Source: an uncultured delta proteobacterium
Lineage (GTDB): Bacteria > Myxococcota_A > UBA9160 > SMWR01
Length of the DNA stretch: 64,000 bases
Assembly (NCBI GenBank): GCA_963832165.1
Contig: CAWHTE010000001.1
Span: 192,001-256,000, forward strand
Direction: 5' to 3'
Both the position numbers and the translations under genes were made by a program. Within the stretch, counting starts at the first letter, position 1. The number at the start of each line of letters is the position of its first letter. The notes beneath the pieces are model-generated. The model had not been told where the DNA came from. It did not search any database and saw nothing but the letters and a program-made list of their open reading frames with translations. Of this stretch, positions 34,608 through 56,842 are shown in pieces.

Positions 34608-35027
34608 CTAGGATTTCGCCTTCTTCGAAGGCTTCGACTTGCGAGAGCTGTTGAGCGCGACCGCCTGGCGAACGAGCGCCTTGAAGGCGGACGCGTCGAC
34701 TGAGTCTCCTTCGTGGATGTCGATCGCGCGGCGTACTTTCCCGTCGAGACTCGCGTTGAAGAGACGGGCCGGATCCTTCAGGGACGCGCCCTTGGCGAAG
34801 GTGAGCTTCACGACATTCTTGTAGGACTCGCCAGTGCAGAGGATGCCGTCGTGCGACCAGACCGGAGTGCCCATCCACTTCCACTCCTCGACGACGTCCG
34901 GGTCTGCCTCCTGGATGAGCTTGCGCATCCGGCTGAGGGTCTCCCCGCGCCAGTCCCCGAGCTCGGCGATTCTCTTCGAGATGAGCCCCGATGCCGACTG
35001 GCCTCGGCTCGCGCCCGACTTCTTCAT
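34608..35027 (-). CDS. DUF1801-domain protein
   Basis: [34 protein letters not shown]. Confidence 0.9.
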
Positions 35028-35068
35028 GCTTTCATCCCTCTACCAGTTTCGGGAAGGCGCAGGACGAT

Positions 35069-35087
35069 CTGCAGCGCACCGTTAGGC
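35069..35087 (-). repeat. attC remnant (R''-L'' arm)
   Basis: Minus strand GCCTAAC-GGTGC-GCTGCAG just after the GFA stop. Confidence 0.65.
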
Positions 35088-35098
35088 GGAAGGTCGCC

Positions 35099-35375
35099 TC
35101 AGCCGAGACCAAGGCGCTCGTGCCACTCAGCGATCGACTCCTCGGGAAAGTGCGGATACAGCTTGTCCTGAGGATCAGACCGGACTTGCACCCAGGAGGC
35201 CTTCGAGTCGAGCAGGAGATGCGTCCGCTCCGGGGGGACAGGAAGCGGGGTATCGATGGCGGATGCGAGCGGGTGCACCAACTCGGGCCAGCGAGGATCC
35301 CACATCCAGAGGTGGCTTCCACAGAGCGCGCAGAAGTGGCGCCTCCCGGGACTCTGGTGGGGAGCAGACTCACCC
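35099..35375 (-). pseudogene. 3' fragment of a GFA-family protein
   Basis: Reads SPGRRHFCALCGSHLWMWDPRWPELVHPLASAID; 5' part replaced by the IS3 remnant. Confidence 0.75.
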
Positions 35376-35377
35376 GG

Positions 35378-36317
35378 ATACTTCCTGAAAAAAGCGCTGG
35401 CCTACTTCGCGGACGACCAGAAGTGAAGTTCCGGTTCGTCCAGGAGCACCGGGAGACCTTCCGGGTAGGCATGATGTGCAAGGTCCTGAAGGTCTCCCGC
35501 AGTGGATACTACGCCTGGCGCGAGCGTCAGCCAAGTCGACGCGAGCGCGAAGATCGTGTGCTCGCCGGACGGATCCATGCGATCCATCGCGAGAGCCGGG
35601 AGACCTACGGCTCGCCTCGGATCCATGCCCGATTGCGTCGGGAAGGAGAGACGGTGGGTCGCCATCGCGTGGCCCGTCTGATGCGCTGGGAGGGGCTGCA
35701 GGGCTGTGCGAAGCAGCGCTTCCGGCGAACGGCCACCGTGCGCGCGGAGCTTCCGGCTGCACCGAATCTCTTGAACGGTAATTTCTCTGCGAAAGTGGCC
35801 AATCGGGTCTGGGTCGCCGACATCACTCAAGTGCGAACCCGCGAGGGTTGGCTCTATCTCGCGATCGTGCTCGACCTCTTCTCCCGCAAGGTCGTCGGTC
35901 ACGCCAGTGCCTCGACCCCGCGCCAGGAGCTCGCTCTCGAAGCTCTCGATCGAGCCCTTCGCATCCGCCGACCCCAACTCGGAACTGATCCATCACAGCG
36001 ATCGCGGTGGGCAGTACCTGAGTGCCGAATATCAGGACCGTCTGGATCGCCACGGCATCGTCTGCAGCATGAGCCGTCCAGGTCGATGCGCGGACAACGC
36101 CGCGGCCGAGAGCTTCTTCCACACGCTGAAGACGGAGTGGCTCTACCACTTCGACTTCTTCACTCGCGAAGAGGCTCGGCTGGCGATCTTCGACTACGTC
36201 GAAGCCTTCTACAACCGGAACCGCTTGCACTCCAGTCTCGACTACCACTCACCCGAGGAGTATGAAACACTGCACAATGCTGCTTGAAACCCCGTCCACT
36301 TTATCGGGGCAAGATCC
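35378..36317 (+). mobile_element. truncated IS3-family element (orfA tail, orfB with frameshift ~35980-35992, right IR)
   Basis: FLKKALAYF with AAAAAAG slip site 35388-35394; [30 protein letters not shown]-like GTCCACTTTATCGGGGCAAGATC. Confidence 0.9.
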
Positions 36318-38139: not shown

Positions 38140-38148
38140 GCCTAACGG
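38140..38148 (-). repeat. attC core remnant (R')
   Basis: GCCTAACGG between convergent genes. Confidence 0.5.
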
Positions 38149-38152
38149 AGCT

Positions 38153-38593
38153 TCACTGGGAGGAGTTCCAGATGTCGCGATGCAATAGCCACTTACCGCC
38201 GGTCCGCTTCCAGATCACGAGGTACCGGGCGTTGCTGGCGGTGCCGTCCTTGGCGATCAAGCCGACGTTCCCGGTTTCGTAGGCGAGATCGCCGACAGAT
38301 TCGACCTCCGCGGTCTCGAGAGTGACGTCCTTGACTCCGGAGTCGATCGATTTCTGCCAGAAGGCTGCAATGGCGGGGCGCGCTTTCGCCACGGGCGCTC
38401 CCGGAGCAATCACTTGCGCATCTGGCGTATAGAGACCGGCAACGGCCTTCGCGTCGCCGCGCAGGAAGGCGGTGATGAATGCGCGATTACCCGCCTCCAC
38501 CGCATCGCGAACCTCGTCGGATCGCGCCGGCGCAGCAGCAACGATGCATGCCAGGGCGAGGAGCGCGGTTGAAGTTCGGTGGGTGCTCATCAT
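38153..38593 (-). CDS. secreted NTF2-like (DUF4440/YybH) protein
   Basis: Signal peptide; LYTPDA, GDLAYETG, YLVIWKR, DIWNS; GGAGGA RBS. Confidence 0.88.
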   Translation of the reverse strand: MMSTHRTSTALLALACIVAAAPARSDEVRDAVEAGNRAFITAFLRGDAKAVAGLYTPDAQVIAPGAPVAKARPAIAAFWQKSIDSGVKDVTLETAEVESVGDLAYETGNVGLIAKDGTASNARYLVIWKRTGGKWLLHRDIWNSSQ

Positions 38594-38660
38594 GAGGTCC
38601 TCCAATCTGTTAGGAATGCCAGGGTTCTCGAGACGGTCAGCTGTCGTGCTCTTGAATGTG

Positions 38661-38680
38661 GCCTAACTCATTCTAGGCAG
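38661..38680 (-). repeat. attC remnant, second family (copy 1)
   Basis: GCCTAACTCATTCTAGGCAG; 19/20 identical to 39060-39079. Confidence 0.65.
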
Positions 38681-38689
38681 CGGGTAGCA

Positions 38690-39043
38690 TCACCGGGTAC
38701 CCACCGGTCGAAGGGCTCGAGCCGGAATGCGGAGCCGGTACTGCTCGCTGGAGGACGCGTTCCAACGGACGGTATCCCTGGTCTGGTGGATCTCGTGCAT
38801 GCCGGACGGATCGAAGACGCGGAGATAGAGATCCGGCGCTGATTCTCGAACGTCACGGAAGTCATCGCGGGTGAACCGGATCTCGAACCGGCCGTCGTCG
38901 TCAGTTGTAGTGAATCCGATTCCGTCGTCGAAGATCAGGTCGCGATCGAATGCCCGGACGATGAAACCGGAGAGCGGACGCCCCGTCTCCTCCTCTTCGA
39001 TCACACCGAAGACGCGGAAGGAGTCTTGATCGGGGGTTGCCAC
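38690..39043 (-). CDS. transthyretin-like / carboxypeptidase-regulatory-like domain protein
   Basis: TGRPLSG..VRAFDRDLIFDD, TDDDGRFEI, PDLYLRV. Confidence 0.7.
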   Translation of the reverse strand: MATPDQDSFRVFGVIEEEETGRPLSGFIVRAFDRDLIFDDGIGFTTTDDDGRFEIRFTRDDFRDVRESAPDLYLRVFDPSGMHEIHQTRDTVRWNASSSEQYRLRIPARALRPVGTR

Positions 39044-39059
39044 TAGCGTATCTCCGGCT

Positions 39060-39079
39060 GCCTAACTCATTCTGGGCAG
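39060..39079 (-). repeat. attC remnant, second family (copy 2)
   Basis: GCCTAACTCATTCTGGGCAG. Confidence 0.65.
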
Positions 39080-39095
39080 AGTACGCGCTAACGCA

Positions 39096-39428
39096 TCAGC
39101 GCACTTCGGACCGATGACCCCACACGCCACCATGCTTGGTGACCTTGAGATCACCCAGCACTTTGCATTGGCACGCCAGGCGAAGTCCTGATCCGTGATG
39201 ATGAGGAAAGACCCCGAGCCGTCGCTGCTCAGCTGCAGTCGCCTCGGAGATCTCGCCCTCGACCTCGACCGCGCAGCTCCCACACATCCCGCGTCCGCGA
39301 CAATTGAGAGCCTGGGCGACGCTGTTGTAAAGGGGAAGGCGCGCCCGTAGCAGAACCACTCGGAGGTTCGCTCCCGGAGGGCACTCGATCGACTGGCCGG
39401 AGAAATGAACGATCGGCATGGCTGTCAT
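39096..39428 (-). CDS. 2Fe-2S ferredoxin
   Basis: CRGRGMCGSC ... RLACQ. Confidence 0.9.
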   Translation of the reverse strand: MTAMPIVHFSGQSIECPPGANLRVVLLRARLPLYNSVAQALNCRGRGMCGSCAVEVEGEISEATAAEQRRLGVFPHHHGSGLRLACQCKVLGDLKVTKHGGVWGHRSEVR

Positions 39429-39537
39429 GACCCCGGTTCACGCTGAGTAACGGCCATGGCCAGCTGCGCGCGCCCGTGTACGACTATGCCACGACCGGTG
39501 GGCAGCGGGCGAATCGACAGCACGGCCCAGCTCATCT

Positions 39538-39765
39538 CTAGGCGCCCTGCGCGGACCCGCGGCCGACGCGACGCCAGACGGCACGCGCAATCACGACCGG
39601 CACGACAAGAACGATCGCCAACGCCGACAGAACCACGAGTGGCTGAAGAAACGAGGGGAGCAGAGAACTGTGTGGGCCCGCGAGAAATATGACGGCGAAG
39701 AAGCAGAGCGGAGCCAGCAGGGCCAGCGAGCCGAGCCAAACAAGGAGGGTTAGAAGCCAGCGCAC
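39538..39765 (-). CDS. small two-TM hypothetical protein
   Basis: Hydrophobic hairpin with LAGPHSSLLP loop. Confidence 0.6.
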   Translation of the reverse strand: MRWLLTLLVWLGSLALLAPLCFFAVIFLAGPHSSLLPSFLQPLVVLSALAIVLVVPVVIARAVWRRVGRGSAQGA

Positions 39766-39809
39766 TAGGCGGAAGGCCTAGCAGGGCCAGCTGCTAGATT
39801 CAACGAGCG

Positions 39810-40217
39810 ATGATCTCCGTAGACGAATTCGTCGAGCGCCTTTGCCGACTGGGTGCCGACCGGGGTCCTCGCGGTTTTCCGCGCAGGCGCCGCGATCGCG
39901 AGATCCTCCTCAAGAGTGTCGTGATGCTGATGGACAGCAGTCGGACATACGCCGAGCGCGAGGTGAACGCCCTCCTGCAGGACTGGAACCGCGACGTAGC
40001 CCCCGCAATCAAGACCGACCACGTGACTTTGCGACGACTCCTGGTCGACTACGGATACCTGGAGCGGACAAGGGACGGTCATGCGTATCGGGTTGGGTTC
40101 CCACCGCAACCTGTCGCGTTCGCTCTCGAGGTCGACGAGATCGACGTGCGAGCGACGATTGCGGCCTACGGAGAGTACCTGCGCAAGACGAGGCGTCGCG
40201 TGGGTCCCACCGCCTAA
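39810..40217 (+). CDS. DUF2087-domain protein
   Basis: YAEREVN..L, DHVTLRRLLVDYGYLER..DG..Y. Confidence 0.85.
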   Translation: MISVDEFVERLCRLGADRGPRGFPRRRRDREILLKSVVMLMDSSRTYAEREVNALLQDWNRDVAPAIKTDHVTLRRLLVDYGYLERTRDGHAYRVGFPPQPVAFALEVDEIDVRATIAAYGEYLRKTRRRVGPTA

Positions 40218-40237
40218 CGGGTCGCGGCTCAGCTGCG
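40212..40237 (-). repeat. attC remnant (L'-R' arm)
   Basis: Minus strand GCAGCTGAGC-CGCGACCC-GTTAGGC. Confidence 0.75.
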
Positions 40238-40648
40238 ACCGGGCGGGCGTGTAACACTCGTAGCGAGCGCCAGGTTATTCCCGTCCGGATCCTTGAAGAA
40301 TGCCATCCACTCCTCGGTCCCGGGCTCGCCAAAGGTGCCGGCGTCGTCACGATGGATCAGGTGCGGTGGTGAATCGAAGACGATCTCGCGCGCCCTGAGG
40401 GATTTGTATGCAACATGGATGTCCGGGACCCAGAAGTAGAGGACGGAACCTCCGGGATCGGCAGCTTCGTGTCGCTCGAGAAGGAGACGCGTGTCGCCGA
40501 GCTGGAAGAAAGCAATCCCGGGAGGATCGAACTCGGCGATCAGGTGAAGGCCAAGGTGATCTCGGTAGAAGCGGATCGATCGCTCGAGATCGGTCGACGG
40601 CAGGGCGACCTGGTGGAGCGGTCCACCTATCGGTGCGTGACTTCCCAT
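40229..40648 (-). CDS. VOC/glyoxalase-family protein
   Basis: LHQVAL, FYRDHLG, WMAFFKDPDGN; GGAGGAG RBS. Confidence 0.9.
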   Translation of the reverse strand: MGSHAPIGGPLHQVALPSTDLERSIRFYRDHLGLHLIAEFDPPGIAFFQLGDTRLLLERHEAADPGGSVLYFWVPDIHVAYKSLRAREIVFDSPPHLIHRDDAGTFGEPGTEEWMAFFKDPDGNNLALATSVTRPPGRS

Positions 40649-40659
40649 GTCTCTCCTCC

Positions 40660-40706
40660 GCCGAACGGACCAATGCTCAGCCGTGCGGCGCAGCGCCGTC
40701 AGCTTC
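40660..40706 (-). repeat. attC site lacking R''
   Basis: Minus strand GAAGCTGAC-GGCGC-T-GCGCC-GCACG-GCTGAGC-ATTGGTCC-GTTCGGC. Confidence 0.75.
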
Positions 40707-40717
40707 GGTCTCTCTCC

Positions 40718-41104
40718 CTAGAGATTCTCGAGAAGAAGGCTGCCGGCCGACACCAACAGCACCGCGAACGTGCCGAGCGTCCCCGCTGAGCGCGCTGGAG
40801 AGGTCGTGGTGAGCGAGACGCCGACTGCATGCGCAACGCGCGCGGCCAGCAAGCCAGCTCCGAGGGCCCATACGAGGCCTCCTGAGCCGCCGCCCAGCTC
40901 GACAAGCGCAATCAAGAGGAGAGCAAGAGGGACGTACTCGATGAAGTTGCCCTGAGCGCGCATACGGCGCGTCAGCTCTTCGTTCCCGCCATCGAGGAAC
41001 CAGATCTTCTCCTTGGACCGAAGAAGCCCGACGCGCAAACTCAGAAACACGAGCATGACTCCGAAAATGGCAGCAATGACTGAGGTGATGGGAACCGGTG
41101 ACAC
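40718..41104 (-). CDS. MAPEG-family protein
   Basis: RAQGNFIEYVP, ARVAHA. Confidence 0.9.
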   Translation of the reverse strand: MSPVPITSVIAAIFGVMLVFLSLRVGLLRSKEKIWFLDGGNEELTRRMRAQGNFIEYVPLALLLIALVELGGGSGGLVWALGAGLLAARVAHAVGVSLTTTSPARSAGTLGTFAVLLVSAGSLLLENL

Positions 41105-41637
41105 AATGCTCCTTGTTGGGCGGCAAGCCAGTCAGAACCGCTAGCACTTCGTCGCGGGTCGAGCTTCTTGGTGAGAAAGCGCGTGGGGCCAGAGTCGCCT
41201 AAGACGAAATCGGCGAACCCAAAGTTCTTGTAGAGCGCCAGGGCTCTTGCGTTGTCGTCCTGGACCTCGAGCGTGAGCTTGCAGCACCCCCGACGCCTGG
41301 CGCGATCCTCCGCAGCTACCAGAAGTGCGCGTCCAACTCCTTGCCCTCGCCACTGCGGCAACACCGCCAGATCGTGGATATTCAAGAGCGGTCGAGCCTG
41401 GAAAGTGGACAACCCGAGAAAACACACCGCGACGCCTGCGGCGTGCCCTTCCGCGATGGCGAGTAGCACCAGTGTCGTGGGGTGATCCCGGAGAGCGGGT
41501 ATGAGTCGATCGCGGACCTCGGGTCCAAGAGGTTCTGCACCGCCCACGGGATCAGCTGCATACGAGTTGAGGACATCGATGATGCCGTCACGGTGTGCAG
41601 CATCGTCGAAGTCCGCGTCTACGATCTCGACTTGCAT
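41041..41637 (-). CDS. GNAT acetyltransferase (real domain ends ~41160; read-through tail)
   Basis: FSTF-like LSTFQARPLLNIHDLAV, WRGQGVG, CCKLTLEV. Confidence 0.88.
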   Translation of the reverse strand: MQVEIVDADFDDAAHRDGIIDVLNSYAADPVGGAEPLGPEVRDRLIPALRDHPTTLVLLAIAEGHAAGVAVCFLGLSTFQARPLLNIHDLAVLPQWRGQGVGRALLVAAEDRARRRGCCKLTLEVQDDNARALALYKNFGFADFVLGDSGPTRFLTKKLDPRRSASGSDWLAAQQGALCHRFPSPQSLLPFSESCSCF

Positions 41638-41657
41638 GTCAACAGACTGCTCTCGCC

Positions 41658-41726
41658 GCCCAACGGATCGGCATTGAGCTGCCGGCCGCCCGGAAGGACC
41701 AGGAGACCCGCCCCATCTTATTAGGC
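41658..41726 (-). repeat. near-complete attC site
   Basis: R'' GCCTAAT holds the dinB stop; L' GCTCAAT; R' GTTGGGC; L'' degenerate. Confidence 0.75.
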
Positions 41727-42269
41727 AGCGCCCTCGGGCATGAGCGCTGTATGCATGAAATCGGTGCCGCCAGGGTCATGGCCGAGCTGGAAGAGCAGCG
41801 CCGTGACTTGGCCACGGTGGTGTGTCTGGTGATTGAAAAGGTGCGCGACCACGTGCCAGAACGGCACCACCATGCTCTGGCCGGTGGAACGAGCATACGA
41901 AAGGTCGCTCTCGAGAATGTCGGGGGTAAGCTCAGCCACCCACGATTGGATCGCAGCATCGGTTTCGCGACGCTGCGCGGCCAGCTCCGGGAAGCTCTCG
42001 TATAGGACTTGTGCGAGCGACTGGAACTCGAAGACCAGTGGGGTCTTCTCGAGGGAGCGAAACCCATGAGGATGCTTGCTGATCCGACCCAGCCATATGC
42101 GATCCGTCAGGAGGATGTGGTTGAGCGTGCCGTGGATGGACCGAAAGAATGCACCCATGTCTCGGTTCCGCTCCTCCTCCGACAGGGACGATGCCAGGTC
42201 ATAGAGTCGGCCGTTGAACCAGGCGTTGTACTGTGCGAATCGGTAGAACTGCTTGAGATGGAGATTCAT
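41721..42269 (-). CDS. DinB/YfiT-family metal-binding protein
   Basis: YNAWFN, SIHGTLNHI, HLFNHQTHHRGQ. Confidence 0.92.
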   Translation of the reverse strand: MNLHLKQFYRFAQYNAWFNGRLYDLASSLSEEERNRDMGAFFRSIHGTLNHILLTDRIWLGRISKHPHGFRSLEKTPLVFEFQSLAQVLYESFPELAAQRRETDAAIQSWVAELTPDILESDLSYARSTGQSMVVPFWHVVAHLFNHQTHHRGQVTALLFQLGHDPGGTDFMHTALMPEGAA

Positions 42270-42299
42270 GCTCGATCCCTGGCGCCGCCTTGTATCTAC

Positions 42300-42490
42300 C
42301 CCGTGGCCGTGCCGACGATCCGACCTAGCATGATCACGCTTCCGGGGAGACCGTTGCTGCCTGAAGCCACGAGCTTGTCCGTTAGATGGGTCCCCCGCCC
42401 TCTTCGCCCATGCCGTGGAGGATCCGAGGCCCGAGAGCCTGCATCCACAAGGTCGGTAGGCGACGGTACAGGGTCGGGGAACCCGGAAGC
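42300..42490 (+). ncRNA. predicted bridge RNA (5' hairpin, target-binding loop, donor-binding loop); ends approximate
   Basis: Two stem/internal-loop/hairpin modules carrying guides TTGCTGCCT/CCGTTAG (target) and GGAGGATC/ACAAG (donor). Confidence 0.85.
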
Positions 42491-42510
42491 AGCGTAACAC
42501 GGGGGGACGC

Positions 42511-43497
42511 ATGCGTGGAGCCTGCTATGTGGGAGTCGATGTCAGCGCGGACGAGATCACGGTGGCGATCGAGGGGCGTGCCGAGCGGGTCACACTGGCC
42601 AACGATATCGAGGGCCACGAGCGACTGATTCGGTTGCTGACCCGCCGCGGAAAGGCCGCGCGCGTGTGCCTGGAGGCGACGGGCATCTACCACCTCGACT
42701 TGGCATTAGCGCTGCATCGAGCGCGAGCGATCGACGTGATGGTGGTGAACCCCTCGGCGGCGCGGGACTTCGGACGCGCGCTGCTGCAGCGCTCGAAGAC
42801 GGATCGCGTGGACGCAGGGGTGCTGCTGGAGTTTGCGCAGCGAATGCCTTTCGCATCGTGGCAGCCGCCCGCGCCCGAGATCCTCGATCTACGGGCGATC
42901 GTCCGTCGGATCGGCGCCCTCACCGTCACGCGAACCCAGGAGCGCAATCGACTTCATGCGGCGGGCCGCTGTGCGGAGCTCACCGAAGCGATCGCCTGGG
43001 ACATCGAAGCGCACCTCGAGCATCTCGCGCAGAGCCTGGAGCGTTTGCAGCAGCAGGCGCTCGAGCTCGTGCAAGCGCACCCCGAGCTCGCGCAACGCTT
43101 CGAGCGGCTCATTTCGGTCCGCGGCATCGCGACCACCAGCGCACTGCGCATTCTCGCCGAGCTCGCCGTGCTGCCCGCCGACATGACCCCTCGTCAGTGG
43201 GTCGCTCACGCGGGACTCGACCCGCGTGCGCACGACTCGGGAACCTCGCTGCACAAGCCCGCCCGGATCAGCAAGAAGGGAAACAGTCACCTGCGAGCGG
43301 CGCTCTACATGCCGGCGATGGTCGCAGCCCGTGAGGAGCCCAGTGTGAGGACCTTCTATCAGAAGCGCCTCGCAGGAGGACTCAAGCCCATCCAAGCCCT
43401 GGTCGCCGTAGAGCGAAAGCTCCTGCATAGCATCCACGGAATGTGGGCGAGCAATAGCAACTTCGACGGCGAGAAATTCTGCGCGATGAGCGCTTGA
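42511..43497 (+). CDS. IS110-family DEDD transposase/recombinase
   Basis: VGVDVS, CLEATG, KTDRVDA, AGLDP..DSG serine motif, ISKKGN..LR.ALY. Confidence 0.95.
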   Translation: MRGACYVGVDVSADEITVAIEGRAERVTLANDIEGHERLIRLLTRRGKAARVCLEATGIYHLDLALALHRARAIDVMVVNPSAARDFGRALLQRSKTDRVDAGVLLEFAQRMPFASWQPPAPEILDLRAIVRRIGALTVTRTQERNRLHAAGRCAELTEAIAWDIEAHLEHLAQSLERLQQQALELVQAHPELAQRFERLISVRGIATTSALRILAELAVLPADMTPRQWVAHAGLDPRAHDSGTSLHKPARISKKGNSHLRAALYMPAMVAAREEPSVRTFYQKRLAGGLKPIQALVAVERKLLHSIHGMWASNSNFDGEKFCAMSA

Positions 43498-43512
43498 CAG
43501 CGCAGAGAGGAT

Positions 43513-43535
43513 CTAACGGATCGCGGTTCAGCTCT
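43513..43535 (-). repeat. remainder of the attC site split by IS110
   Basis: Minus strand GCTGAAC-CGCGATCC-GTTAG. Confidence 0.75.
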
Positions 43536-43615
43536 GCCGCCCCGCGTACCTCCGAGTATCAATCCAGCGGCCGCCGCGCGTCAATCACCGACCGGCGGCC
43601 GCCGACATGCCCCGA

Positions 43616-43789
43616 TCAAGGTGCGTCGGGGTCAGATAGAGCCCTGTGGCGCGCGGTGCGGCGGATGTGCGATTCGCCGAACGGCTCGAGCCGGTAGGCG
43701 ATCCCCTTCGCGCGCAGATAGGCCTCGAGCTTGCCGGTGAAGTACGAAGCCGTGGTGCCGTAGATGGTGAGCGCGGTGGCGCCCGTCAT
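43616..43789 (-). pseudogene. N-terminal fragment of a glutathione S-transferase
   Basis: IYG...SYFTGKLEAYLRAKGI then stop after 57 aa at the island edge. Confidence 0.7.
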
Positions 43790-43791
43790 CG

Positions 43792-45219
43792 CTAGCGCGC
43801 GAGCGCCGCGAGCAGCTTCTCCCAAACGCCGCCGAAGTCGCCGTTGCTCATCACCACGGCGACGTCACCCGGCTGTGCAGTGGCGGCGATGTGCGCGACG
43901 ATCGCGTCGACGTCGGGCAGCGCCACGGCGGGTACGCCGCGCGCGGTGATGTCTGCGGCGAGCTGCTCCGCGGAGAAGCGCTCGGTGACCTCGCCCGTGG
44001 CGCTGTAGATCGGCGTGTCGGGCACGATCCGGATCACCACCGTGCCGGCCCGGTCGAACGACTGCGCATACTGCTGCTGGAACACCTTGCGCCGGCTCGT
44101 GTTGGTGCGCGGCTCGAAGATCGCCACCACGCGCCGGCCCGGATAGCGCGCGCGCACGGCCTCGAGCGTGGCGGACACGGCGGTCGGATGATGCGCGAAG
44201 TCGTCGAGCACGGTCACGCCGCGTGCTTCGCCGCGCACCTCGAGCCGGCGGCGCACGCCGCGGAATTGCGCGAGCGCCGCTGCGGCATCGGCGAGCGGTA
44301 CGCCGAGCTCGACCACGGCCCCGAGACCCGCGACGGCGTTCTCGATGTTGTGCGCGCCGTAGAGCGGAACGAGCGTGGAGACCGCGGCGCCGCCGGGCCC
44401 GCGCAGGACGAAACGCGTGCCGCGCTCGTCCGATGAAAGATCCGTGGCGGCGTAATCGAAATCGCCGCCGCTGCCCACGCCGTATCCGACCACGCGACAC
44501 GGCGCACCGCGCACCACGTCGCGCACGCCCTCGTGCGCGAGCGCGGCCACGATCGTTCCCTCGCGCGGCATCTGCCGCACGAGCGTGCGGAACGCGTCCT
44601 TCACGTGCTCGAGGTCGCGGTAGATGTCGGCGTGGTCGAACTCCACCGACGTCACCACGAGCGTGCGCGGGTGGTAGTGCAGGAACTTCGGCGTCTTGTC
44701 GAAGAACGCGGTGTCGTATTCGTCGCCCTCGACCACGAAGTGCGAGCCTGCGCCCTCGCGGAAGCTGCCGTCGAAGTCGAGCGCGTGTCCGCCCACGAGC
44801 AGCGACGGGTCGCGGCCGCAGCGCAGCAGGAGCGACGCGAGCAGGCTCGTCGTGGTGGTCTTGCCGTGCGTACCGGAGACCACCACCGAGTGCTTGCCCG
44901 CGATCGCGAGCTCGTAGAGCGCGTCGGAGAACGAGCGGTAGGGCAGGCCCTCGTCGATGGCTGCGCGCGCCTCGGGGTTGTCGGGGCGCACGGCATTGCC
45001 GATCACCACGAGGTCGGGGTCGGCCGCGTGCACGTGCTCGGCGCGGAAGCCGTCGTTCACGCGGATGCCCCAGGTCTCGAGCAGCGTGCTCATGGGCGGG
45101 TAGAGGTGATCGTCGGAGCCCGTCACGCGCAGGCCGCGCGCGTGCAGCAGGCCCGCGAGGCTGCCCATGCCCGTTCCACCGATCGCTACGAAGTGGACGC
45201 TGCGCGGAGTCTCACTCAC
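43792..45219 (-). CDS. mpl: murein peptide ligase
   Basis: IGGTGMGSLA, YPPMST, GTHGKTTT, EGDEYDTAFFDK, DDFAHHPTA, EPRTNT, MSNG. Confidence 0.93.
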   Translation of the reverse strand: MSETPRSVHFVAIGGTGMGSLAGLLHARGLRVTGSDDHLYPPMSTLLETWGIRVNDGFRAEHVHAADPDLVVIGNAVRPDNPEARAAIDEGLPYRSFSDALYELAIAGKHSVVVSGTHGKTTTTSLLASLLLRCGRDPSLLVGGHALDFDGSFREGAGSHFVVEGDEYDTAFFDKTPKFLHYHPRTLVVTSVEFDHADIYRDLEHVKDAFRTLVRQMPREGTIVAALAHEGVRDVVRGAPCRVVGYGVGSGGDFDYAATDLSSDERGTRFVLRGPGGAAVSTLVPLYGAHNIENAVAGLGAVVELGVPLADAAAALAQFRGVRRRLEVRGEARGVTVLDDFAHHPTAVSATLEAVRARYPGRRVVAIFEPRTNTSRRKVFQQQYAQSFDRAGTVVIRIVPDTPIYSATGEVTERFSAEQLAADITARGVPAVALPDVDAIVAHIAATAQPGDVAVVMSNGDFGGVWEKLLAALAR

Positions 45220-46432
45220 CGTCGGACGGTTCCTCTTCGCTCGGCGCATCGCCCTCGCTCTTCGGCTCGCGCGGCGGTGGCTCCGCGAGGAAGCCCTCCA
45301 TCACGAGATCGTGCACGATCGGGCGCAGCTCGAAGCGGCTCTTCTTGGCCACCTGATGCACGCGGTTCGAGAGCATCACGACGATCGCCTCGCGTTCCAG
45401 ATCGATCCACAGCGATGTCCCCGTGAAGCCGAGGTGCCCGATCGAGCGCGCCGAGAAGTACTGGCCCGACGAGGACTGCCCCGGCGTCGGCGTGTCCCAG
45501 CCGAGCGCCCAGTCCGAATCCTTCGGCAGCTGCTGGCGTTCGCTGAAGGCCTGCAGCGCTGCGCGGGGCAGCGCGTCGCTGCGGCCGTGCCAGACGTCCA
45601 CCACGGCCTGCGCGAAGCGCATCACGTCGTCGGCCGTGGAGAACAGGCCCGCGTGGCCCGCGATGCCGCCCATCGCCCACGCGTTCGGGTCGTGCACCTC
45701 GCCCCAGACGATCCGCTCGCGCCACGGGCAGTTCTCGGTGGCGGCGACGCGTCGGCGCTGCGCCTCGGACAGCTCGCCGCCGCCGCCCACGGGCACGAAG
45801 AACGTCTCGCGCATGCCGAGCGGCTCGAACACGCGCTCGCGGCAGTAGTCATCGAGGCGCCGCTGCGTCACCGCCTCCACCACCGCGCCCAGCGTGATGA
45901 AGTCGAGGTCGCCGTACACGGCGGCCTCGCCGGGCGCGTGCACGAGCGCCGAGCGCACGATCCGGTCGATCACGAACTCTCGCGCTGCGGGTGTCGCGAG
46001 CCAGCGCTCGCCGGTCTTGTGCTCGCGCTCGAGCAGCAGCTCGTGGAAGCCGCGCCAGGGCTTGAGCCCGGACGAGTGCGTGAGCAGATGGCGGATCGTC
46101 ACGATGTCCTTGCCGCGCTCCGCGAACGCGGGCAGGTACTTCGCGACCGGCGCATCGAGATCGACGCTGCCCTCGTGCACGAGCCAGAGCAGCGCGCTCG
46201 TGGTGGCCATCGGCTTGGTCAGCGACGCGAGATCGAAGATCGTCTCGCGCGTCATCGGGATGCGCTCGGGCCGCACCACGGCGTGACCGCGCACCGAGAG
46301 GTGCTCGATGATCTCGCCCTCGCGCGGCATGCGCGCGAGCACGACCGCGCCCGGGATCTCGGCGGATTCGATCGCCTTGTCGAGCGCGCGATCGATCTTC
46401 GCGAGCTTGCGCCGAATCAGACTCCACTTCAC
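45212..46432 (-). CDS. serine hydrolase, beta-lactamase class C-like
   Basis: DLASLTK (SxxK), LLTHSSG, VHDPNA, GHAGLF, GHLGFTGTS. Confidence 0.88.
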   Translation of the reverse strand: MKWSLIRRKLAKIDRALDKAIESAEIPGAVVLARMPREGEIIEHLSVRGHAVVRPERIPMTRETIFDLASLTKPMATTSALLWLVHEGSVDLDAPVAKYLPAFAERGKDIVTIRHLLTHSSGLKPWRGFHELLLEREHKTGERWLATPAAREFVIDRIVRSALVHAPGEAAVYGDLDFITLGAVVEAVTQRRLDDYCRERVFEPLGMRETFFVPVGGGGELSEAQRRRVAATENCPWRERIVWGEVHDPNAWAMGGIAGHAGLFSTADDVMRFAQAVVDVWHGRSDALPRAALQAFSERQQLPKDSDWALGWDTPTPGQSSSGQYFSARSIGHLGFTGTSLWIDLEREAIVVMLSNRVHQVAKKSRFELRPIVHDLVMEGFLAEPPPREPKSEGDAPSEEEPSDGE

Positions 46433-56766: not shown

Positions 56767-56842
56767 TGGCTGGGGCGGCAGGACTCGAACCTGCAGATGG
56801 CGGCTCCAAAGGCCGCTGCCTTACCAGTTTGGCGACGCCCCA
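56767..56842 (-). tRNA. tRNA-Gln(TTG)
   Basis: 76-nt cloverleaf TGGGGCG...CTTTGGA...GGTTCGAGTCC...CGCCCCAGCCA; usual ispE-tRNA-prs context. Confidence 0.97.

What the first reader, a model, noticed from the sequence alone, without database searches (positions are those of the whole stretch)
42282..43519. IS110 bridge recombinase programmed against integron attC sites, with a directly readable bridge RNA
Seen: the junctions are GCGCCGC-CT|TGTAT (left) and AGAGGAT-CT|AACGG (right). This gives target GCGCCGC-CT-AACGG (an attC core) and donor AGAGGAT-CT-TGTAT. The ~220-nt non-coding end upstream of the transposase folds into two loop modules. Target loop: outer stem GGGGAGACC/GGTCCCCC, left guide TTGCTGCCT (42354-42362; 6/9 identical to the target, 8/9 allowing G:U), inner hairpin AAGC/GCTT, right guide CCGTTAG (42379-42385; exact reverse complement of CTAACGG). 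Donor loop: left guide GGAGGATC (42417-42424; 7/8 vs AGAGGATC), inner hairpin AGGC/GCCT, right guide ACAAG (42447-42451; reverse complement of CTTGT). Known: IS621 uses this bispecific architecture, a CT core and a similar donor; IS1111-group elements are known to target attC. Inference: this is an IS621-like element with an upstream RNA naturally aimed at attC cores. I cannot confirm from here that it is undescribed.
Basis: partly seen in the sequence, partly recalled or inferred. Interest (0 to 1): 0.93.

Follow-up and report, generated by a model that had tools for sequence, protein, structure and literature searches.

The report
Bridge-RNA insertion sequence aimed at integron attC
This is an intact IS621-like mobile element whose own upstream RNA carries short guide sequences that match one end of integron cassette recombination sites (attC); it belongs to a large family in soil bacteria in which guides and insertion sites change together.

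Summary

- **The element.** Window 42291-43514 is a 1,224-bp IS110-group element: a 220-nt non-coding left end, a 328-aa DEDD/Transposase_20 recombinase and a 17-nt right end. A second, identical copy lies on another contig.
- **The target.** Both copies sit at ..CGC-CT|AACGGATCG. This is the R' end of attC sites in cassette arrays. In 5 of 5 relatives tested there is a true integron integrase, with an IS copy 1.8-28 kb away in 4 of them.
- **Conservation of the RNA.** In 71 of 80 related loci from several phyla the same RNA scaffold lies upstream of the recombinase gene.
- **Support for the fold.** 15 of 28 pairs show compensatory changes, and 0 of 500 shuffles reach the observed values.
- **Guides track insertion flanks.** The left target guide matches its own flank at 4.34 of 7 positions against 2.46 for other flanks. 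The right target guide matches at 5.05 against 2.30. In both cases 0 of 10,000 permutations reach the observed value.
- **Donor guide.** It covaries with the right end in 4 variants.
- **Junction promoter.** Joining the two ends gives TTGACA-17 nt-TATCTA, and this spacing holds in 47 of 49 relatives.

Bridge RNAs and attC-targeting IS1111 elements are both known. An IS621-type lineage aimed at attC was not described in the papers I could search. I judge it a new member of a known kind, of moderate interest.

The parts
42282..42290 (+). Left target half plus core (GCGCCGC-CT). Read on the minus strand this is the 3' part of the attC R' box, followed by the DinB cassette.
   Evidence: The second copy has ATGACGC-CT at this place. 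Uninterrupted sites read GCCTAACGGATC.
42291..43514 (+). The insertion sequence, 1,224 bp, counting the core copy at 43513-43514.
   Evidence: It is 100% identical to G000:C11 over exactly this span, and the flanks diverge outside it.
42291..42510 (+). Left non-coding end (220 nt) that encodes the bridge RNA. The first ~50 nt vary in sequence among relatives.
   Evidence: Alignment A1. nhmmer finds the core upstream of the recombinase gene in 71 of 80 related loci.
42293..42298 (+). TATCTA, the -10 half of the promoter that forms only when the right and left ends are joined.
   Evidence: In the joined ends, TTGACA is followed by 17 nt and then TATCTA. Relatives have a TATNNN-type hexamer at the same place in nearly all cases.
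42349..42392 (+). Target-binding module: outer stem GACC 42349-52 with GGTC 42389-92, enclosing the two target guides and an inner hairpin.
   Evidence: Outer stem pairs are GC:34/AU:6, CG:40/UA:3 and CG:41/UA:1; helix 98.8% paired.
42354..42362 (+). Left target guide TTGCTGCCT (same sense as the left flank, so it pairs with the bottom strand).
   Evidence: Own-flank match is 4.34 of 7 against 2.46 for other flanks, over 35 distinct guides and 51 insertions; 0/10,000 permutations. Guides with C at position 5 have flank C in all 9 cases. Guides with U have C or T there (my reading).
42364..42376 (+). Inner hairpin of the target module (AAGC / GCTT).
   Evidence: Compensatory changes: AU:36/GC:4 and CG:20/GC:17.
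42377..42385 (+). Right target guide GTCCGTTAG. The last 7 nt are the reverse complement of CT-AACGG.
   Evidence: Own-flank match is 5.05 of 7 against 2.30, over 27 distinct guides and 42 insertions; 0/10,000 permutations.
42393..42479 (+). Donor-binding module. Closing stem 42393-42401 with 42470-42479, second stem 42404-42411 with 42456-42463, inner hairpin AGGC 42427-30 with GCCT 42437-40.
   Evidence: Helices 3-5: CG:26/UA:16, CG:23/UA:17, GC:34/AU:7 and GC:26/AU:15. RNAalifold finds the same helices.
42417..42424 (+). Left donor guide GGAGGATC.
   Evidence: It covaries with the right end: GGAGGATC with GAGGATCT, GGAGTATC with GAGTATCT (43 loci), GGAGAATC with GAGAATCT (5), GGAGCATC with GAGCATCT (1).
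42447..42451 (+). Right donor guide ACAAG, the reverse complement of core plus left end (CT-TGT).
   Evidence: The Rhodothermales relatives have ACAAT together with an AT-TGTAT left end.
42511..43497 (+). Recombinase gene, 328 aa.
   Evidence: D/E/D/D positions and the SG-motif serine region align with ISCro4 (alignment printed).
43494..43499 (+). TTGACA, the -35 half of the junction promoter. It overlaps the stop codon.
   Evidence: TTGA starts 21 nt before the right end in 47 of the 49 loci where a TTGA was found. 51 loci had both ends defined.
43498..43514 (+). Right end (17 nt after the stop codon), containing the left donor half AGAGGAT and the core CT.
43515..43615 (+). Right target half (AACGGATCG...) and the rest of an attC-like site that lacks its closing arm.
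   Evidence: It resembles the complete sites at C2:367275 and C7:817158 up to ...CCGGCGGCCGCCG and then diverges. No hairpin closing the R box was found within 175 nt.
38140..41790 (-). Cassette array. R' ends of further attC-like sites lie at 38140, 40212 and 41658. Cassette genes on the minus strand: DinB, GNAT, MAPEG, glyoxalase and SnoaL families.
   Evidence: GC3 is 0.5-0.8 in this region, against above 0.9 in the core genes to the right of 43.8 kb.

Best explanation
Window 42291-43514 is a recently active IS110-group (IS621-like) insertion sequence.

**How it most likely works**
- **Excision and promoter.** The element excises as a circle. Joining its right and left ends builds a sigma-70-type promoter: TTGACA in the right end, a 17-nt spacer, and TATCTA in the left end. 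This step is inferred.
- **Bridge RNA.** That promoter transcribes a bridge RNA of about 190 nt from the left non-coding end, followed by the recombinase gene. This step is inferred.
[quoted passage not shown] - **Donor loop.** It holds GGAGGAUC and ACAAG, which read the element's own joined ends AGAGGAT-CT-TGTAT.
- **Recombination.** The DEDD/serine recombinase bound to this RNA recombines donor and target at the CT core. The result is ...GCCGC-CT-[IS]-CT-AACGG... with no duplication beyond the core.

**What the target is.** The specified sequence of about 14 nt is the R' (GTTAGGC) end of integron attC sites, read on the strand opposite to the cassettes. The element therefore lands at cassette boundaries, in a fixed orientation opposite to the cassette genes.

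**Shown here:** the element ends, two identical copies, the identity of the target as attC ends, the conserved and covarying RNA fold, the covariation of guides with flanks and with the donor end, and the conserved promoter geometry.

**Inferred:** transcription, the circular form, and catalysis.
For: **Family**
- Pfam DEDD_Tnp_IS110 and Transposase_20.
- NF033542 'IS110 family RNA-guided transposase', 188.9 bits against a cut-off of 140.
- Full-length matches to the solved ISCro4 and IS621 transposases.
- IS621's own sequence, as printed from the supplement of PMC11208160, starts CT-TGTAT. Its RNA contains ...ATCGGGCCT...GCGTAG-AT... and ...GACAGTATCA...GCAAG. That is the same order of guides as here.

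**Ends and activity**
- Two 100% identical copies with unrelated flanks.

**Target**
- Both copies have CGCCT | AACGGATCG.
- Empty GCCTAACGGATC-type motifs cluster in arrays.
- They close RYYYAAC...GTTRRRY hairpins of about 115-165 nt.
- The C11 copy sits in a complete attC of about 128 nt.
- The genes between the sites are small and unrelated: DinB, GNAT, MAPEG, glyoxalase and SnoaL families.
- An integron integrase scores above the cut-off in 5 of 5 relatives, 1.8-28 kb from an IS copy in 4 of them.
- The strand relations in G129 (integrase on the minus strand, motif on the minus strand) place the motif at the R' end.

**RNA**
- The scaffold is found upstream of the gene in 71 of 80 related loci.
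- Fold statistics: 93.9% paired, 15 of 28 pairs compensatory, 0/500 shuffles.
- Guides differ widely between elements while the stems stay the same.
- Guides match their own flanks better than other flanks. Examples are L135 at 7/7 on both sides and G085 at 9/9 on the left.
- The donor guide and the right end covary in 4 variants.

**Promoter**
- The spacing is conserved in 47 of 49 loci.
- PMC11208160 (passages read) reports such a promoter, reconstituted across the joined ends, for IS621.

**Weak hint of expression**
- Contigs from three metatranscriptome libraries cover 42339-42610, 42344-42515 and 42347-42507.
- No listed difference from the window falls within either loop, 42349-42460.
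Against: - No experiment supports the model, and no RNA 5' or 3' end has been mapped.
- The RNA-library contigs end where a DNA contig also ends. They may stem from DNA in the libraries, and no silent control stretch was laid.
- Folding of the single sequence is no better than shuffles.
- In the window the left guide is imperfect: 6/9 identical plus 2 wobbles. The second core position of the left donor guide reads C where the donor has T. IS621 shows a mismatch at the same place.
- The window's genome has no integron integrase above the cut-off: best 72.6 bits against 265, in an 89% complete assembly. The site occupied in the window has no closing arm.
- In G156, 4 of 6 copies lie at sites that share only the short core sequence. 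attC is therefore the usual carrier of the target rather than the thing recognised.
- Relatedness inflates the shuffle statistics. Many of the 43 and 71 sequences are close kin.
Confidence: 0.87

Rival explanations
1. The recombinase, or a host factor, recognises the attC site by its folded structure or by protein-DNA contacts. On this view the upstream 220 nt are only a leader and promoter, and the guide-like matches are leftovers of target sequence or chance.
For: attC sites are structured and are recognised as folded DNA by integron integrases (recalled). The left guide in the window is imperfect. The fold of the single sequence is not better than shuffles.
Against: Guides and flanks change together across 27-35 distinct guide sequences. 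This includes relatives whose targets are not attC-like, such as CTATGTAAC, CTCCGGG and CTTTTCT. The window copy sits in a site without a closing arm. In G156, 4 of 6 copies lie outside attC-like flanks. The stems covary while the loops vary.
Confidence: 0.04
2. The element is a member of the known IS1111-attC group (ISPa21, ISKpn4, ISPst6 and relatives), which carries its seeker RNA downstream of the transposase gene.
For: It is in the same superfamily and has the same kind of target, one end of attC. PMC11187229 (passages read) shows RNA-guided attC targeting for ISKpn4 and ISPst6.
Against: Only 17 nt follow the stop codon, while 220 nt precede the start. No inverted repeat longer than 6 nt links the first and last 70 nt. 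The bottom-strand guide lies 5' of the top-strand guide. Per PMC11187229 that is the IS110-type order and the reverse of IS1111. The closest named and solved relatives are IS621 and ISCro4.
Confidence: 0.02
3. The repeats that carry the target are not integron attC sites. They would be another kind of repeated palindromic element (REP-like), and the association with integrons would be incidental.
For: G000 has no integron integrase above the cut-off. IS110-family elements often target REP sequences (PMC11208160 reference list). I could not run the IntegronFinder attC model. The spacer between the R' box and the next arm is longer than on the other side.
Against: The boxes fit RYYYAAC / GTTRRRY, and site length, array spacing and gene content are those of cassettes. 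In 5 of 5 relatives a true integron integrase is present, with arrays of the same motif next to it. By my reading, 17 of 40 xTAAC-type insertion sites in other genomes close on a complementary GTT... box, against 0 of 10 sites of other types.
Confidence: 0.06

Closest known systems
IS621 (E. coli) and ISCro4: IS110-group bridge recombinases with a bridge RNA encoded in the left end
   Same: - Domain architecture, with a full-length alignment.
- Protein size: 328 aa here, and a 328-residue IS621 chain in PDB 8wt6.
- A long upstream non-coding end and a short right end.
- A CT core and a left end starting TGTAT.
- Two RNA modules in the order left target guide, hairpin, right target guide, then left donor guide, hairpin, right donor guide.
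- A promoter split between the right and left ends.
   Different: - About 35% protein identity.
- The natural target is the R' end of attC rather than E. coli REP-type sequences.
- The right target guide is 7-9 nt, whereas the paper's analysis of IS621 uses a four-base right guide.
- The hosts are soil Myxococcota and other uncultured phyla.
IS1111-attC group (ISPa21, ISKpn4, ISPst6, ISPa25)
   Same: - A DEDD transposase superfamily member that inserts site- and orientation-specifically at one end of attC sites.
- RNA-guided, as shown for ISKpn4 and ISPst6 in PMC11187229.
   Different: - The RNA of those elements is downstream of the gene, with the top- and bottom-strand matches in the reverse order.
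- They have subterminal inverted repeats of 7-17 bp.
- Here the RNA is upstream and no such repeats exist.
- On this evidence the two groups reached attC separately. That is an inference; no tree was built.
Group IIC-attC introns
   Same: Another mobile element class that homes to attC sites using base pairing by its own RNA (abstract of PMC3001079 in the listing).
   Different: They are retroelements (ribozyme plus reverse transcriptase), not DNA recombinases. They share no sequence or mechanism with this element.

Membership tests
IS110 group (IS621-like) bridge-RNA elements | Recombinase with an N-terminal DEDD RuvC-like domain and a C-terminal Transposase_20 domain carrying the catalytic serine | tested here: met
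   PF01548 at 2.9e-18 and PF02371 at 9.8e-19. NF033542 above its cut-off. The alignment with ISCro4 keeps GvDvS, cLEAT, KTDxvDA and dSGtS.
IS110 group (IS621-like) bridge-RNA elements | Long non-coding left end upstream of the gene, short right end, and no long subterminal inverted repeats | tested here: met
   220 nt upstream against 17 nt downstream. The longest inverted repeat between the first and last 70 nt is 6 nt.
IS110 group (IS621-like) bridge-RNA elements | Insertion without target duplication other than a core dinucleotide present at both junctions | tested here: met
   CT lies at 42289-90 and at 43513-14. Empty sites read GCCTAACGG.
IS110 group (IS621-like) bridge-RNA elements | RNA with a target-binding and a donor-binding internal loop, whose guides covary with target and donor | tested here: met
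   Fold covariation. Guide-versus-flank permutation tests and donor covariation.
IS110 group (IS621-like) bridge-RNA elements | Promoter reconstituted across the joined right and left ends of the circular form | tested here: met
   By sequence only: TTGACA-17 nt-TATCTA across the joined ends, with the spacing kept in 47 of 49 relatives. Promoter activity was not tested.
IS110 group (IS621-like) bridge-RNA elements | Circular intermediate, an RNA bound by the recombinase, and RNA-dependent recombination | not testable with these tools
   The only relevant data are RNA-library contigs over 42339-42610, which do not prove transcription.
IS1111 group / IS1111-attC | Non-coding RNA region downstream of the transposase gene, and subterminal inverted repeats of 7-17 bp | tested here: not met
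   Definition taken from PMC11208160 and PMC11187229.
Integron attC site (for the target) | Outer boxes RYYYAAC and GTTRRRY bounding an imperfect palindrome of about 60-150 nt | tested here: met
   Met for the arrays on C2, C5 and C7 and for the C11 copy. Not met for the site occupied in the window, which lacks the closing arm. The consensus itself is recalled.
Integron attC site (for the target) | Arrays of single-gene cassettes adjacent to an integron integrase gene | tested here: inconclusive
   Arrays and cassette-like genes are present in the window, but G000 has no integrase above the cut-off. In 5 of 5 relatives the integrase is present, next to arrays with the same motif.
Integron attC site (for the target) | Detection by the curated attC covariance model (IntegronFinder), and recombination by IntI | not testable with these tools
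   The model is not in Rfam. The Rfam scan of the window found only a tRNA.

The most novel reading that the evidence does not exclude
An IS621-type clade that spans several phyla appears to have taken integron attC ends as its main natural target, apparently separately from the IS1111-attC group. Its members are in Myxococcota, Burkholderiales-type beta-proteobacteria and Rhodothermales, among others. Its guides track lineage-specific variants of the attC core.

Within the clade, four elements of one Myxococcota genus are natural hybrids:
- The target core is AT and the left target guide reads AU.
- The donor core, the right target guide and the right donor guide are still CT-type.
- The left junction carries AT and the right junction carries CT.

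This suggests that recombination in nature tolerates a mismatch between donor and target at the first core position. Alternatively, it may use only the T as the overlap.

A second point is that the element's right end turns the split R' box into GTTAGAT, which still fits GTTRRRY. The interrupted attC could therefore stay usable by the integron integrase. In that case the IS would ride along as part of a composite cassette.
Probability: 0.4. Interest if true: 0.65.

Novelty: new member of a known kind. Interest (0 to 1): 0.5.

Why it matters
**For integron biology.** A second, mechanistically distinct branch of RNA-guided elements parasitises cassette boundaries, here in chromosomal arrays of soil bacteria. 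Each insertion places 1.2 kb, in the opposite orientation, between a cassette and whatever promoter lies upstream of it.

**For bridge recombinases.** The family is a ready-made natural reprogramming series. One scaffold carries dozens of guide pairs, with both CT and AT cores, 7-9-nt right target guides and a U that accepts either C or T in the target. It also includes a natural case in which donor and target cores differ. These can be tested directly in the existing two-plasmid assays.

**Limits.** It does not change the known mechanism, and the kind of system has been well described since 2024.

Tried and rejected
- **Single-sequence folding.** The minimum-energy folds differ from the model and are no better than shuffles. 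This is uninformative in such G+C-rich RNA with large internal loops.
- **Rfam scan of the window.** Only a tRNA was found, and no bridge-RNA family matched.
- **Register-shift idea for the AT-core relatives (target GCCGC-AT-CTAACGG).** Rejected. That 14-mer has no exact occurrence in the four genomes, and its one-mismatch hits are no more frequent than the control. The empty sites read GCCGCA|TAACGG.
- **Ungapped search for partner arms of the attC motif.** It was swamped by chance matches in this G+C-rich genome and abandoned in favour of DNA folding. The first version of the script failed on a programming error.
- **First right-end rule in the flank script.** It cut two bases too early. It was corrected, and only onwards is used.
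- **Earlier notes of this scan.** Nothing to show.
- **Sequencing runs.** No run holds half of the stretch. Shares of 0.06-0.26 turned out to be the conserved RNA region and parts of the gene. All contigs, including the DNA one, stop near 42338-42347, so nothing can be said about a transcription start, and I name no habitat from them.
- **One paper look-up failed on the format of a term.** It was not repeated.
- **Not run.** I did not run the large protein searches, structure prediction or complex prediction, because the family assignment did not need them.
Full report
**1. What is in the sequence**

The window's genome holds a second copy, on contig 11, that is identical over exactly 42291-43514. 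Outside this span the two loci share only CGCCT on the left and AACGGATCG on the right.

The element is 1,224 bp long and has three parts:
- a 220-nt non-coding left end;
- one ORF, 42511-43497 (328 aa);
- 17 nt after the stop codon.

CT lies at both junctions, and uninterrupted sites elsewhere in the genome read GCCTAACGGATC. The element has therefore inserted at a CT core without any other duplication.

**2. The protein**

- Pfam finds DEDD_Tnp_IS110 and Transposase_20.
- NCBIfam NF033542, 'IS110 family RNA-guided transposase', scores 188.9 bits against a cut-off of 140.
- The only solved structures matched are the ISCro4 and IS621 transposases, over the full length (E = 3.6e-46 and 3.1e-45). 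The acidic residues and the SG-serine region are aligned.
- Among plasmid records, annotated IS621-family transposases are 35.5% identical over 98% of the length. The best hits, at 45-46%, are unnamed IS110-family genes of Acidisarcina and Salinibacter.
- No inverted repeat longer than 6 nt links the two ends.

By the criteria in PMC11208160 and PMC11187229 (passages read) this is the IS110 group, not the IS1111 group.

**3. The target is the R' end of attC sites**

*In the window's genome.*
- The 12-mer with at most one mismatch occurs 33 times, against 13 for the reversed control.
- Many hits are clustered: three in the window (38140, 40212, 41658), five within 3.7 kb on contig 2, and pairs on contigs 2, 5 and 7.
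- Folded as DNA, sites on contigs 2, 5 and 7 form imperfect hairpins of 115-165 nt. Their ends are GCCTAAC/GCCCAAC... and ...GTTAGGC/GTTAGCC/GTTAGAC/GTTGGGC. That is the RYYYAAC/GTTRRRY arrangement of attC; the consensus is recalled.
- The contig-11 copy lies in a complete site of about 128 nt.
- The site occupied in the window resembles the long sites up to its centre but has no closing arm.

*Genes between the sites.*
- They are small, unrelated and mostly on the minus strand: DinB, GNAT, MAPEG, glyoxalase/bleomycin-resistance fold, ferredoxin, SnoaL and DUF1801 families.
- Their GC3 is lower than in the core genes that start at 43.8 kb.
- Gene starts lie 10-37 nt to the left of the motif. 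Read in cassette direction, the motif is therefore ...GATCC-GTTAGGC, the 3' (R') end of the attC.

*Integron integrase.*
- G000 has no integron integrase above the cut-off: best 72.6 bits against 265, in an 89% complete assembly.
- Five of five relatives examined do, at 426-450 bits, with none of 14 control genomes matching.
- In four of these relatives an IS copy is on the same contig, 1.8 kb (G046), 2.8 kb (G156), 3.7 kb (G129) and 28 kb (G130) from the integrase. Motif arrays lie between them in G129 and G130.
- In G129 the integrase is on the minus strand and the motif is also on the minus strand, as expected for the R' end of cassettes transcribed away from the integrase.

**4. The RNA**

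Folding the single sequence is uninformative. Relatives decide the matter.

*Relatives found.*
- A search of the window's order found the protein in 20 of 193 genomes at E <= 1e-40.
- A scan of one genome per species found 548 confirmed relatives among 602 pattern matches, and the best 80 were kept. They come from MAGs labelled Myxococcota, Casimicrobiaceae and other beta-proteobacteria, Acidobacteriota, Thermoanaerobaculia, Terriglobia, Rhodothermales, Latescibacterota, Gemmatimonadota, Binatia and others.
- A profile of the conserved part of the left end finds a match upstream of the gene in 71 of these 80 loci.

*The fold.*
- In the alignment the stems are kept while four short stretches vary freely.
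- RNAalifold on 16 sequences gives two consecutive stem-loop modules, each with a large internal loop capped by a short hairpin. [quoted passage not shown]
- I used 43 distinct sequences, chosen from 53 distinct cores by leaving out the ten most gapped or most divergent, and a structure of 28 pairs. 93.9% of cells pair, 15 pairs have compensatory changes (105 cells), no shuffle of 500 reaches these values, and sliding the partners gives at most 61.5% paired. The shuffle control overstates significance for related sequences; the slid control does not have that weakness.
The alternative, 42393-42401 with 42470-42479, is 97.2% paired, with CG:26/UA:16 at one pair. Both pairings show a compensatory change in the same five sequences, so I prefer the second but cannot exclude the first.

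**5. Guides against flanks**

I fixed the ends of each related element from conserved end motifs. I then compared the nine columns aligned with 42354-62 and with 42377-85 to the flanks, leaving the core out. Loci with gaps in a guide or with an end not found were dropped: 51 insertions remain for the left guide and 42 for the right.

| Guide | Distinct guides | Own flank (of 7) | Other flanks (of 7) | Permutations reaching observed |
|---|---|---|---|---|
| Left target guide | 35 | 4.34 | 2.46 | 0 of 10,000 |
| Right target guide | 27 | 5.05 | 2.30 | 0 of 10,000 |

*Individual cases.*
- L135: guides specify CCGTTAC-CT and CT-ATGTAAC, and both flanks match 7/7.
- G085: the left flank matches 9/9.
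- G094: the only guide with U next to the core, and both of its flanks have T there.

*Wobble.* Guides with C at the fifth position always face C in the flank (9 of 9). Guides with U face C or T, as expected if U pairs with G or A of the bottom strand (my reading).

*Donor guide.* It changes with the right end in four variants: GGAT, GTAT (43 loci), GAAT (5) and GCAT (1). There are two exceptions, GGAGTGTC with GAGTATCT and the Rhodothermales GGAGTTTA with GAGTATAT.

*Results against a perfect picture.*
- Several left guides match poorly: L112 at 1/7, L120 at 1/7 and L151 at 1/7.
- In G156 only two of six copies have attC-like flanks.

The RNA reads a short sequence. attC sites are where that sequence is common.

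**6. Promoter**

Joining the right and left ends gives TTGACA (43494-99, overlapping the stop codon), then 17 nt, then TATCTA (42293-98). Among 51 relatives with both ends defined, a TTGA was found in 49. In 47 of those it starts exactly 21 nt before the right end, and the hexamer supplied by the left end is TATNNN or TACCTC in all but two. PMC11208160 describes this arrangement for IS621. Promoter activity here is inferred.

**7. Expression**

No run holds the whole stretch. Contigs from three metatranscriptome libraries of three studies cover 42339-42610, 42344-42515 and 42347-42507. None of the differences listed falls within either loop. A DNA contig ends at the same left position. This is at most a weak hint that the RNA region is transcribed somewhere. 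It gives no ends and does not exclude DNA carry-over.

**8. Comparison with what is known**

- Bridge RNAs of IS110 elements (PMC11208160) and seeker RNAs of IS1111 and IS110 elements (PMC11187229) were published in 2024.
- The latter paper shows RNA-guided attC targeting for the IS1111 members ISKpn4 and ISPst6, with the RNA downstream of the gene and the two strand matches in the reverse order.
- Two full-text searches found no paper describing an IS110-group element with an upstream RNA that targets attC.
- In PMC11208160 the word attC occurs only in the reference list.
- Its supplementary alignments do contain at least three target entries with CCGCCTAACG, next to guides ATGCCGCCT and GCGTTAG. 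Such elements are therefore already in public data sets without being named as attC-targeting.
- ISfinder could not be consulted, and the stored supplements are cut.

I therefore call this a new member of a known kind.

**9. Verdict**

The mechanism is that of IS621, at 0.87 confidence. Interest is moderate (0.5). The find is a clean natural example and a useful comparative series, with one odd sub-case described under 'noticed in passing', but it is not a new kind of system.

Noticed in passing
L039/L105 (G130), L040/L106 (G129), L043/L110 (G126), L049/L172 (G118); empty sites in L073-L101: In one Myxococcota genus the empty attC ends read GCCGC-AT-AACGG, and the left target guide of the resident element reads ..GCAU. 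The right target guide (..UUAG), the right donor guide (ACAAG) and the right end (GAGTAT-CT) are still CT-type. All four left junctions carry AT, and the three right junctions that could be read (the fourth, in G118, was not found) carry CT. Donor and target cores thus differ at the first position.
   Followed up: partly
L148, L150-L161 (Rhodothermales MAG, many copies): A relative with a fully consistent AT core: left guide ..CAU, right guide ..UUAU, right donor guide ACAAU, right end GAGTAT-AT, left end AT-TGTAT. It is inserted at ..GYAT|AACGGCTGGCGGA sites, several of which close on GTTATAC or GTTATGC boxes.
   Followed up: partly
window 43506-43519, read on the minus strand: After insertion the split R' box reads GTTAG-AT instead of GTTAG-GC, which still fits GTTRRRY. 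The attC body therefore keeps a consensus R' box that now leads into the IS. Whether the integron integrase can still use it was not tested.
   Followed up: no
window 43515-43790: The attC-like site carrying the IS has no closing arm and lies at the very edge of the array, next to a Mur ligase gene (43795-45249, minus strand). GC3 jumps from about 0.5-0.8 in the array to above 0.9 in the core genes.
   Followed up: partly
window 34991-36284 (+): Two overlapping ORFs carry HTH_21 and rve integrase-core domains. They look like an IS3-type transposase split into two frames, inside the cassette region.
   Followed up: no
G156 loci L044, L058, L060, L061: Four of the six identical copies in this complete genome lie at sites that share little more than ..C-CT-AA(C/G).. 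with the guides. They look like off-target or half-matched insertions.
   Followed up: no
L118 (downstream sequence): The right end of this Casimicrobiaceae-type copy is preceded by a direct duplication of about 45 nt, which includes the TTGACA box and the first part of the right-end motif.
   Followed up: no
window 56770-56842 (-): A tRNA gene, the only Rfam match in the window.
   Followed up: no
window 45215-46432 (-): A 406-aa ORF of the Pfam Beta-lactamase family (PF00144) lies among the high-GC3 core genes, beside an LD-carboxypeptidase gene. This is more likely a cell-wall or esterase-type housekeeping gene than a cassette.
   Followed up: no
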